Positions 50,126 to 50,202 of a stretch of DNA of 64,000 nt are shown piece by piece (the stretch's first letter is position 1; each line of letters opens with the position of its first letter). The notes beneath the pieces are model-generated. The model saw nothing but the letters and a program-made list of their open reading frames with translations, did not search any database and was not told the DNA's origin. The stretch comes from a virus (Duplodnaviria; Heunggongvirae; Uroviricota; Caudoviricetes): IMG/VR virus record IMGVR_UViG_3300035498_002028. One strand, written 5' to 3'. Made by a program: the position numbers and the translations under genes.

Positions 50126-50202
50126 TGTTGTGCTCTACCATCTGAGCTAACACATACTATGTATGTGTATCGGAATCGAACCGATGACAGCAACCTTGGA
50201 AT
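50126..50202 (-). ncRNA. Permuted tRNA-like element (YrlA/Y-RNA-like tRNA mimic or permuted tRNA-Gly-like)
   Basis: Minus strand 5'->3': ATTCCAA-GGTTG, variable CTGTC, T-arm ATCGG-TTCGATT-CCGAT, acceptor 3' strand ACACATA, linker C-ATAG, perfectly complementary acceptor 5' strand TATGTGT, TA, D-arm GCTC-AGATGGTA-GAGC, then A-CAACA, which can pair with the upstream GGTTG. Confidence 0.5.

What the first reader, a model, noticed from the sequence alone, without database searches (positions are those of the whole stretch)
50126..50202. tRNA-like elements with permuted domain order (T-arm, acceptor 3' strand, loop, complementary acceptor 5' strand, D-arm): YrlA/Y-RNA-like tRNA mimics or permuted tRNAs
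Seen in sequence: a canonical T-arm (ATCGG-TTCGATT-CCGAT) plus 3' acceptor strand (ACACATA) is followed 5 nt later by the perfectly complementary 5' acceptor strand (TATGTGT) and a canonical D-arm (GCTCAGATGGTAGAGC). This happens at two independent loci; the second is at 54727-54805 (ACAGG-TTCGATT-CCTGT, CAACCCA / AGGGTTG, GCG-AATTGGTAAA-CGC).

In both, a 5-nt strand after the D-arm pairs with a 5-nt strand before the variable region (CAACA/GGTTG and CCAGT/ACTGG), so the anticodon-stem equivalent is closed by the two flanks.

This architecture matches the tRNA-like module of bacterial YrlA (Y RNA) and permuted tRNA genes. Ordinary tandem tRNA genes are excluded because neither flank holds the missing halves. 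Locus 1 could carry a Gly-like UCC loop (ATTCCAA); locus 2 has no U33 loop.

The phage also encodes a tRNA-binding-domain RNA ligase, a PNK-HD enzyme, a CCA-adding enzyme and RNase H. That machinery could process or ligate such RNAs.
Basis: partly seen in the sequence, partly recalled or inferred. Interest (0 to 1): 0.8.

Follow-up and report, generated by a model that had tools for sequence, protein, structure and literature searches.

The report
Y-RNA-like phage RNAs carrying tRNA mimics
The two "scrambled tRNA" elements are real: each is the cargo of a small RNA built on a conserved handle, eight of which surround a gene for a Ro60-like protein, a pairing that recurs in many phages and bacteria and is absent from Rfam and from the literature I could search.

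Summary
On the minus strand, both loci read: anticodon-stem 3' strand, variable loop, T-arm, closed 7-bp acceptor hairpin, D-arm, anticodon-stem 5' strand. This is the module order of bacterial YrlA Y RNAs.

Rfam's YrlA model hits locus 1 at 31 bits (E 7e-5). It hits eight related modules elsewhere at 29-51 bits. All are below its threshold of 69 bits.

The elements are not free-standing. Each is the insert of a larger RNA with a conserved handle: NNGG-CUAU-[8 bp]-WUCCUUCU...[8 bp]-AAUUU-CCNN. The window holds eight such RNAs on one strand, around a 744-aa gene. Other copies carry hairpins that resemble tRNA anticodon stem-loops (Lys-UUU-like, Pro-like).

The handle and protein travel together. 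Handles were found in 69 of 80 phage loci and 75 of 80 bacterial loci chosen by protein alone: 434 on the gene's strand and 5 on the other.

Best reading: a Ro/Y-RNA-like ribonucleoprotein with a new handle and a new partner protein. In phages the RNAs display tRNA parts.

It is not a strict YrlA member. The permuted-tRNA reading is unlikely.

The parts
50103..50230 (-). E7, the handle RNA that contains locus 1. Handle 5' strand 50230-50207 (CUGG CAAU UAAAAUUC AUCCUUCU). 87-nt insert 50206-50120, with the tRNA-like module at 50195-50126. Handle 3' strand 50119-50103 (GAAUUUUG AAUAU CUAG).
   Evidence: The MFE fold gives the handle plus a cloverleaf-like four-way junction. YrlA RF02553 scores 31.3 bits, E 6.7e-5.
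54701..54835 (-). E4, the handle RNA that contains locus 2. Handle 5' strand 54835-54812 (UCGG CUAU CUAGCUCC AUCCUUCU). 94-nt insert 54811-54718, with the tRNA-like module at 54798-54727. Handle 3' strand 54717-54701 (GGAGCUAG AAUAU CCGA). It starts 9 nt after the stop codon of the 744-aa gene.
   Evidence: Fold z-score -4.9. Only weak T-arm/acceptor-hairpin hits to permuted-tmRNA models.
54844..57078 (-). 744-aa candidate partner protein. Residues 1-~450 form a helical, Ro60/TROVE-like domain. Residues ~470-640 form a TerD domain. A small C-terminal alpha/beta domain follows.
57292..57366 (-). E1, a handle RNA. Its 34-nt insert holds an anticodon-stem-loop-like hairpin GAUAU-CUGGGAA-AUAUU.
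57171..57270 (-). E2, a handle RNA. Its 59-nt insert forms a 15-bp hairpin.
   Evidence: Fold z-score -6.5.
57098..57161 (-). E3, a handle RNA with a 23-nt insert. It ends 19 nt upstream of the ATG of the 744-aa gene.
53208..53287 (-). E5, a handle RNA. Its 39-nt insert holds UUAGA-CUUUUAA-UCUAA, a mimic of the tRNA-Lys(UUU) anticodon stem-loop.
   Evidence: The same loop recurs in 9 related inserts.
50247..50324 (-). E6, a handle RNA with a 37-nt insert. Handle pairing is weaker, 10 of 12 pairs. A sigma-70-like promoter (TTGACA-17-TAATAT, 50381-50353) lies upstream.
49956..50089 (-). E8, a handle RNA. Its 93-nt insert forms a long hairpin. Handle pairing is 10 of 12 pairs.
   Evidence: Fold z-score -4.3.

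Best explanation
The two elements are the tRNA-mimicking cargo of two members (E4, E7) of an eight-member family of small non-coding RNAs.

Each RNA is closed by a conserved handle made from its own 5' and 3' ends:
- a 4-bp stem;
- an internal loop, CUAU opposite AAUUU;
- an 8-bp stem;
- the near-invariant single strand WUCCUUCU.

Each RNA carries a variable insert. The inserts seen are a whole acceptor/T/D tRNA body with a closed acceptor stem, an anticodon-stem-loop look-alike, a lone T-arm, or a plain hairpin.

Inferred steps (not shown):
- The handle is bound by the adjacent 744-aa protein, whose N-terminal domain resembles the Ro60 ring and whose C-terminal part is a TerD domain.
- The resulting particle works like Ro60/Y RNA. 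The protein holds the handle, and the cargo is exposed to whatever recognises tRNA.
- In phages the cargo most likely either soaks up host enzymes that attack tRNA (anticodon nucleases) or recruits tRNA-handling and repair enzymes.
- The 7-bp acceptor hairpins are probably cut by RNase P and extended with CCA, as happens to M. smegmatis YrlA.

Shown: the RNA architecture, its covariation, its spread, and its genetic linkage to the protein.
For: Handle:
- All 8 minus-strand occurrences of TCCTTCT in the window lie in the same scaffold.
- Across 57 copies from different contigs, 10 of 12 handle pairs show changes on both sides. The covariation score is 1.0, against 0.19 for shuffles and 0.10-0.15 for slid controls.
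- The 3' loop AAUUU/GCUUU was never selected for, yet it is conserved.
- MFE folds reproduce the handle in all 8 window copies.

Linkage to the protein:
- Loci fetched by RNA pattern alone encode the protein next to the RNAs.
- Loci fetched by protein alone carry handles in 69 of 80 viral loci, 289 on the gene's strand against 3 on the other.
- The same holds in 75 of 80 bacterial genome loci, 145 against 2, usually within a few hundred nt of the gene.

Protein:
- AF2 gives pLDDT 91.7.

Cargo:
- The V-T-AS-D parse succeeds in 25 of 37 long inserts, against 7 of 3700 shuffles.
- U8, A14, G18G19, G53-C61 and the UUCGAKU T-loop are conserved.
- The YrlA model hits 8 modules in five related loci at 29-51 bits, E down to 1.5e-8.
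- Anticodon-stem-loop-like hairpins occur in 17.6% of short inserts, against 1.6% of shuffles.

Precedent:
- YrlA and YrlB lie next to rsr and are processed from one precursor.
- YrlB has only a T-arm.
Against: - There is no direct evidence of transcription, of stable RNAs, or of protein-RNA binding.
- The handles used in the covariation test were chosen by pairing (at least 11 of 12), so the percentage paired is partly by construction.
- In many bacterial genomes the RNAs sit 5-20 nt before the start codon. That would also fit a cis-regulatory leader.
- The decoy or recruiter function is inference. The handle's invariant UCCUUCU is unexplained and could instead pair with purine-rich targets such as ribosome-binding sites.
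Confidence: 0.6

Rival explanations
1. They are ordinary members of the YrlA family (RF02553), bound by a host or phage Rsr/Ro60 protein.
For: - The YrlA model is the only significant Rfam hit for locus 1.
- It hits 8 related modules.
- The module order is identical to YrlA.
Against: - All scores are 29-51 bits against a gathering score of 69.
- I saw no GNCGAA(N0-1)G Rsr-binding motif in the eight elements. A different, strongly conserved handle replaces it.
- No ORF of 400 aa or more in the window matches Pfam TROVE.
- The RNAs co-vary in presence with a TerD-domain protein, not with Rsr.
Confidence: 0.08
2. They are circularly permuted (or split) tRNA genes. The handle brings the ends together. 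The ends are cut and joined by the phage RNA ligase and PNK. The acceptor loop is opened by RNase P, CCA is added, and a working tRNA results.
For: - Re-joining the parts in silico gives sequences that ARAGORN calls as tRNA in 25 of 25 cases.
- The 7 nt before the anticodon-stem 3' strand often look like anticodon loops with U33: AUUCCAA in E7, and AUGCCAA and CUCCAAA elsewhere.
- Some acceptor loops read ACCAC or ACCAT, that is, discriminator plus CCA.
- The phage encodes an RNA ligase, a PNK-HD enzyme, a CCA-adding enzyme and RlaP.
Against: - Locus 2 and many orthologues have no U33 (AAAGGGA).
- The same handle carries non-tRNA cargo in most copies and only short loops in bacteria.
- The handle's invariant sequence points to protein recognition rather than a splice site.
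- To my knowledge, no bacterial pathway for such cut-and-join maturation is known.
- The ARAGORN result partly follows from how the parse was built.
Confidence: 0.08
3. The handle elements are cis-acting parts of the 744-aa gene's transcript (autoregulatory leader, processing or stability signals), not free trans-acting RNAs.
For: - They are always on the gene's strand and mostly within a few hundred nt of it.
- In Paenibacillus and relatives the last copy ends 5-20 nt before the start codon.
- E3 ends 19 nt before the ATG, and E4 starts 9 nt after the stop codon.
Against: - There are up to 8 copies per locus.
- Window copies E5-E8 lie 1.5-4.9 kb downstream, beyond other genes.
- In some genera all copies are downstream of the gene.
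- Elaborate tRNA-like cargo is hard to explain for a leader.
- E6 has its own promoter-like site.
Confidence: 0.12
4. They are decayed remnants of tandem tRNA genes or recombination scars, with no function.
For: - They lie inside phage tRNA/tmRNA gene arrays.
- The acceptor loops resemble the junction between two tandem tRNA genes.
Against: - They are conserved in position and structure across phages whose partner proteins are only 36-77% identical, with compensatory changes in all four stems.
- They are always embedded in the handle.
Confidence: 0.02

Closest known systems
Bacterial YrlA/YrlB Y RNAs with Rsr (Ro60) (Rfam RF02553; Chen et al. 2014, PMC4201824)
   Same: - Two-module RNA: a stem formed by the 5' and 3' ends, plus a tRNA-like domain ordered V, T-arm, closed acceptor hairpin, D-arm.
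- Conserved tRNA tertiary-contact nucleotides.
- Several RNAs clustered next to the partner protein gene; some carry only a T-arm.
- Present in both bacteria and phages.
- The partner protein has a Ro-like helical domain by fold.
   Different: - The handle sequence is different: GGCUAU...UCCUUCU...AAUUUCC, with no GNCGAA motif seen.
- Scores are below the Rfam threshold.
- The partner has a TerD domain where Ro60 has a vWA domain, and it does not match Pfam TROVE.
- The cargo repertoire includes anticodon-stem-loop mimics and plain hairpins.
- There are up to 8 copies per phage.
Metazoan and Deinococcus Y RNAs with Ro60
   Same: - A terminal stem with an internal loop or bulge serves as the protein-binding site, with a variable effector module beyond it.
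- There is a pyrimidine-rich single-stranded stretch next to the stem.
   Different: - There is no GGUCCGA-type helix.
- No sequence similarity was found with these tools.
Circularly permuted tRNA genes (Cyanidioschyzon merolae) and split tRNA genes (Nanoarchaeum). This comparison rests on my own knowledge.
   Same: - The 3' half precedes the 5' half, with a short linker across the acceptor ends.
- A helix is formed by the outer ends.
   Different: - There is no bulge-helix-bulge motif and no splicing endonuclease.
- An anticodon loop is absent or degenerate in many copies.
- The handle is shared with non-tRNA cargo.
Two-piece (permuted) tmRNA genes
   Same: The T-arm, acceptor 3' strand, loop and acceptor 5' strand come in the same order. 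This gives weak Rfam hits at locus 2.
   Different: - There is no tag reading frame and no pseudoknots.
- The phage has a separate standard tmRNA at 58033-58431.

Membership tests
YrlA (Rfam RF02553) | Score at or above the family gathering score (69 bits) | tested here: not met
   Locus 1 scores 31.3 bits. Locus 2 has no hit at E up to 10. Related modules score 29-51 bits.
YrlA (Rfam RF02553) | tRNA-like domain ordered V, T-arm, closed acceptor-like hairpin, D-arm, with conserved T- and D-loop nucleotides | tested here: met
   25 of 37 long inserts parse, against 7 of 3700 shuffles.
YrlA (Rfam RF02553) | GNCGAA(N0-1)G Rsr-binding motif near the 5' end (PMC4201824) | tested here: not met
   By reading the 5' strands of all 8 window elements and 57 relatives. 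They read NNGG-CUAU-N8-WUCCUUCU and I saw no such motif. No dedicated pattern search was run.
YrlA (Rfam RF02553) | Encoded next to a TROVE-domain (Rsr/Ro60) gene | tested here: inconclusive
Ro60/TROVE proteins | Sequence match to the TROVE domain plus a C-terminal vWA domain | tested here: not met
Ro60/TROVE proteins | Ring of helical repeats that binds RNA | tested here: inconclusive
Permuted tRNA genes | 3' half upstream of 5' half, joined across the acceptor ends | tested here: met
   In-silico re-permutation gives ARAGORN tRNA calls in 25 of 25 cases.
Permuted tRNA genes | Intact anticodon loop (U33, purine 37) that can be restored by joining the ends | tested here: inconclusive
   E7 has AUUCCAA. 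E4 has AAAGGGA, with no U33. Results among relatives are mixed.
Permuted tRNA genes | Mature, aminoacylatable tRNA produced through a circular or ligated intermediate | not testable with these tools
   This needs RNA sequencing of infected cells.
Canonical tRNA / tmRNA | Detected by ARAGORN or by the Rfam tRNA/tmRNA models | tested here: not met
   call other tRNAs and the tmRNA but not these loci.

The most novel reading that the evidence does not exclude
The handle plus the Ro-like/TerD protein is a general display platform for RNA modules. In phages the tRNA-bodied members are true permuted or split tRNA precursors. RNase P opens the 7-bp acceptor hairpin and CCA is added. The phage ligase/PNK then joins the anticodon-side ends, or the nicked two-piece RNA is used as it is. 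The product is chargeable and tRNA-like, and escapes host anticodon nucleases. This would be the first permuted tRNA gene system in bacterial viruses.
Probability: 0.08. Interest if true: 0.95.

Novelty: new variant of a known kind. Interest (0 to 1): 0.8.

Why it matters
Bacterial Y RNAs and Ro60 are known from a limited set of lineages, and the purpose of their tRNA-like domain is an open question.

This finding points to a second, sequence-unrelated handle and a Ro-like partner that carries a TerD domain:
- The protein family has 2,959 representative clusters.
- It is found in Bacillota, in a few other phyla, and in large gut and rumen phages.

In phages the RNA family is expanded. Its cargo reads like a parts list of tRNA: whole bodies, T-arms, and Lys-, Pro-, Phe- and Cys-type anticodon stem-loops. 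These RNAs sit beside phage tRNA genes, and the same genome carries an RNA-repair gene set.

That makes a concrete idea testable: such particles act as decoys or docking sites in the fight over tRNA between phages and host nucleases.

It would also give Rfam a new, easily recognised family, and give the uncharacterised protein family (phrog_33734, related to NF041916) a first functional handle.

Tried and rejected
- blastn of the locus against GenBank phages found nothing. Megablast of 20 kb found only a 73-nt match.
- Rfam at gathering threshold did not call the loci. Rfam at E up to 10 gave no credible family for the handle on E1-E3 or on a Paenibacillus example.
- A single-protein scan of viral contigs gave only 2 loci. 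An alignment was needed.
- Foldseek against PDB saw only the TerD domain.
- A profile search against PDB sequences saw only TerD.
- Burroughs and Aravind 2016 (Rot/TROVE and RNA repair) is not held in the library.
- Literature searches for TerD with TROVE, Y RNA, SCO0854 or decoy terms found no description of this pairing.
- Two bacterial neighbourhoods showed no shared neighbour. One had a DUF2357/PD-(D/E)XK nuclease and the other an AAA ATPase.

Considered and dropped:
- Promoter or terminator elements. There are no T-runs, and the promoter scan is at background level.
- A kink-turn or tetraloop-receptor identity for the internal loop. By inspection, the sequence does not fit.
- The idea that UCCUUCU exists only to pair with G-rich stretches of the insert. 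Such pairing is seen in E4, E6 and E7, but the motif is invariant whatever the insert.

Full report
OBSERVATION

Both elements lie on the minus strand. Locus 1 reads GGTTG-CTGTC-[ATCGG TTCGATT CCGAT]-ACACATA-CATAG-TATGTGT-TA-[GCTC AGATGGTA GAGC]-A-CAACA, from 50195 down to 50126. Locus 2 reads ACTGG-TATAT-[ACAGG TTCGATT CCTGT]-CAACCCA-ATATAAT-AGGGTTG-TG-[GCG AATTGGTAAA CGC]-A-CCAGT, from 54798 down to 54727.

This is a tRNA body whose acceptor stem is closed by a small loop. Its anticodon stem is left open towards the flanks. ARAGORN and Rfam at gathering threshold find five tRNAs and a tmRNA in the window but neither locus. The T-arm core GGTTCGATTCC is over-represented, 5 matches against 0.44 expected. 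On a local search, the Rfam YrlA model matches locus 1 over its tRNA-like core at 31.3 bits, E 6.7e-5. Locus 2 only gives weak T-arm/acceptor-hairpin matches to permuted-tmRNA models.

THE ELEMENTS ARE INSERTS IN A LARGER REPEATED RNA

Both loci are flanked by the two strands of one scaffold, here called the handle:
- 5'-NNGG CUAU [8 nt] WUCCUUCU ... insert ... [8 nt complementary] AAUUU CCNN-3'.

All eight minus-strand occurrences of TCCTTCT in the window belong to such a scaffold, and I found no scaffold on the plus strand. The eight RNAs are:
- E1 57366-57292
- E2 57270-57171
- E3 57161-57098
- E4 54835-54701 (locus 2)
- E5 53287-53208
- E6 50324-50247
- E7 50230-50103 (locus 1)
- E8 50089-49956

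Minimum-energy folding reproduces the handle in all eight. For E7 it gives a cloverleaf-like four-way junction.

THE HANDLE FAMILY IS WIDESPREAD AND COVARIES

A pattern scan of IMG/VR with CGGCTA-N10-TCCTTCTA returned many single, presumably chance matches. It also returned contigs with 2-8 clustered copies. A pairing scanner found the full scaffold in those clusters.

In an alignment of 57 handle-only sequences, both stems vary freely while staying paired. Ten of 12 pairs show changes on both sides. The covariation score is 1.0, against 0.19 in shuffles and 0.10-0.15 when partners are slid.

One caveat applies. Copies were selected for at least 11 of 12 pairs, so the percentage paired is partly built in. 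The 3' internal-loop sequence (AAUUU, GAUUU or GCUUU) was not selected for and is conserved all the same.

Rfam holds nothing that matches the handle. This was tested on E1-E3 and on a Paenibacillus example, and at gathering threshold on 12 related loci.

LINKAGE TO ONE PROTEIN

In loci fetched by the RNA pattern alone, a homologue of the window's 744-aa ORF (54844-57078, minus strand) lies directly beside the clusters.

The reverse test gave the same answer.
- Eighty viral loci were fetched by protein alignment alone, at 36-77% identity. Handles were present in 69 of them, 289 on the gene's strand and 3 on the other.
- Eighty bacterial genome loci were fetched the same way. They include Lachnospiraceae, Ruminococcus, Paenibacillus, Bacillus, Brevibacillus and Niallia, plus single Sericytochromatia, Kouleothrix and Adiutrix assemblies. 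Handles were present in 75 of them, 145 on the gene's strand and 2 on the other.

Handles sit immediately upstream or downstream of the gene. Bacterial copies number 1-3 and have short inserts of 15-27 nt. Phage copies reach 8 and have long inserts.

In phages the whole unit lies inside tRNA/tmRNA gene arrays on the same strand. The window's closest relative, L123, has the same 3 + 5 arrangement within about 1 kb downstream. In the window, that array is interrupted by extra genes.

THE PROTEIN

- Pfam finds nothing.
- PHROGs places it in phrog_33734, of unknown function.
- NCBIfam relates it to the MXAN_6230/SCO0854 family, below cut-off.
- The family is large, with 2,959 representative clusters.
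- The AlphaFold model is confident, with pLDDT 91.7.
- Other helical-repeat hits align poorly or over short stretches.

The similarity is moderate and is seen at fold level only. I treat a Ro-like ring as likely but unproven.

THE CARGO

Insert lengths among 225 distinct phage-associated copies are bimodal. The main group is 15-45 nt, with a second peak at 85-95 nt.

Long inserts:
- 25 of 37 parse as anticodon-stem 3' strand, variable loop, T-arm, 7-bp acceptor hairpin, two nucleotides, D-arm, then anticodon-stem 5' strand. Only 7 of 3700 shuffles do.
- Across 21 distinct modules all four stems covary.
- U8, A14, G18G19, G10-C25, G52-C62 and G53-C61 and the UUCGAKU loop are kept.
- A G15:C48 pair is possible in 12 of the 21 modules.
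- The YrlA model finds eight such modules in five loci at 29-51 bits, E down to 1.5e-8.

Short inserts:
- They are enriched eleven-fold for 5-bp hairpins with a 7-nt loop of anticodon-loop form, 17.6% against 1.6% in shuffles.
- The commonest loops are CUUUUAA (Lys-UUU type, 9 copies), UUUGGGA (Pro type, 6), CUGAAAA (Phe type) and CUGCAAA (Cys type).
- In the window, E5 carries the Lys type and E1 carries CUGGGAA.
- Some inserts hold only a T-arm.

INTERPRETATION

The architecture parallels Ro60/Y RNA, and YrlA/YrlB in particular:
- a terminal protein-binding stem plus an effector module;
- several RNAs next to the protein gene, made from one precursor;
- a tRNA-like domain in the same order;
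- a sister RNA with only a T-arm;

I therefore propose that the handle binds the 744-aa Ro-like/TerD protein, and that the cargo is displayed to tRNA-recognising factors.

The phage also encodes its own tRNA-Lys(UUU), a PNK-HD enzyme, an RNA ligase, RlaP and a CCA-adding enzyme. From general knowledge, this toolkit is used against anticodon nucleases such as PrrC, which cuts tRNA-Lys. So the favoured role is decoy or docking site in the conflict over tRNA. This last step is inference.

WHAT IT IS NOT

It is not a strict YrlA member:
- scores are below threshold;
- I saw no GNCGAA motif;
- there is no TROVE sequence match.

The permuted-tRNA reading keeps some support:
- all 25 in-silico re-joined modules are called tRNA by ARAGORN;
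- some 5' flanks look like anticodon loops (AUUCCAA, AUGCCAA, CUCCAAA);
- some acceptor loops read ACCAC or ACCAT.

These features are equally explained by descent from tandem tRNA genes. Locus 2 lacks U33, and most family members have no tRNA body.

A purely cis-regulatory role fits the bacterial arrangement. It does not fit the dispersed, cargo-rich phage copies.

NOVELTY

I found no description of the handle RNA or of a TerD/Ro-like partner in Rfam 15 or in the searchable literature. One relevant paper could not be read. Large catalogues of unnamed candidate phage RNAs exist (PMC10690425) and may include it without annotation.

I rate this a new variant of a known kind, a Ro/Y-RNA-like particle.

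Noticed in passing
window 50693-52627 (-): A 532-aa TnpB/Cas12f-like protein lies at 51029-52627 (PF07282 7.5e-23; NCBIfam guided_TnpB 6e-50 and Cas12f2 1.4e-37). It is followed by four 36-nt direct repeats, GTTTTGGATATATCTAATTTTACATAGGTACAAAAC, at 50926-50891, 50860-50825, 50794-50759 and 50728-50693, with 30-nt spacers. This looks like a phage-borne miniature type V CRISPR locus. It sits in the middle of the handle-RNA array.
   Followed up: partly
window 57382-57529 (-): Directly after tRNA-Lys lies a tRNA-like gene with a good acceptor stem, D-arm and T-arm. ARAGORN calls it only with its intron option, as tRNA-Cys(GCA) with a 57-nt insertion at position 32/33. The insertion itself contains a T-arm-like hairpin, ATAGG-TTTGAAT-CCTAT.
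   Followed up: partly
window 58033-58431 (-): A phage-encoded tmRNA (Rfam 77.7 bits) with tag peptide ANTELKAVA. tmRNA genes also accompany the protein/handle unit in related phage loci L123, L134 and L154.
   Followed up: no
window 44045-46453 (-): Adjacent Ser/Thr protein kinase (560 aa) and PP2C phosphatase (237 aa) genes lie a few kb from the RNA array. From memory, kinase/PP2C pairs accompany Ter-system proteins. A link to the TerD-domain protein was not tested.
   Followed up: no
window 12662-32446 (-): An RNA-repair style gene set: PNK-HD (12662-13675), RNA ligase with PHA02142 OB domain (14768-16078), CCA-adding enzyme (21308-22573), RlaP nucleotidyltransferase (23607-24644) and an SPFH/Band-7 protein (31541-32446).
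   Followed up: partly
window 11297-12163 (-): A 288-aa protein that combines HNH endonuclease, AP2 and Tad2-like (Thoeris anti-defence 2) domains.
   Followed up: no
L137 4478-4548 (+): A skipping-rope RNA (RF02924, 48.3 bits) lies just upstream of the handle RNAs in a related phage. This is another orphan phage RNA motif in the same tRNA-array neighbourhood.
   Followed up: no
window 50207-50214, 54812-54819 and the six other handles: The single-stranded motif WUCCUUCU is almost invariant across more than 200 copies, whatever the cargo. It is complementary to purine-rich, ribosome-binding-site-like sequence (AGAAGGA). In some copies (E4, E6, E7) it can also pair with a G-rich stretch of the insert. 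Its role is unexplained.
   Followed up: partly
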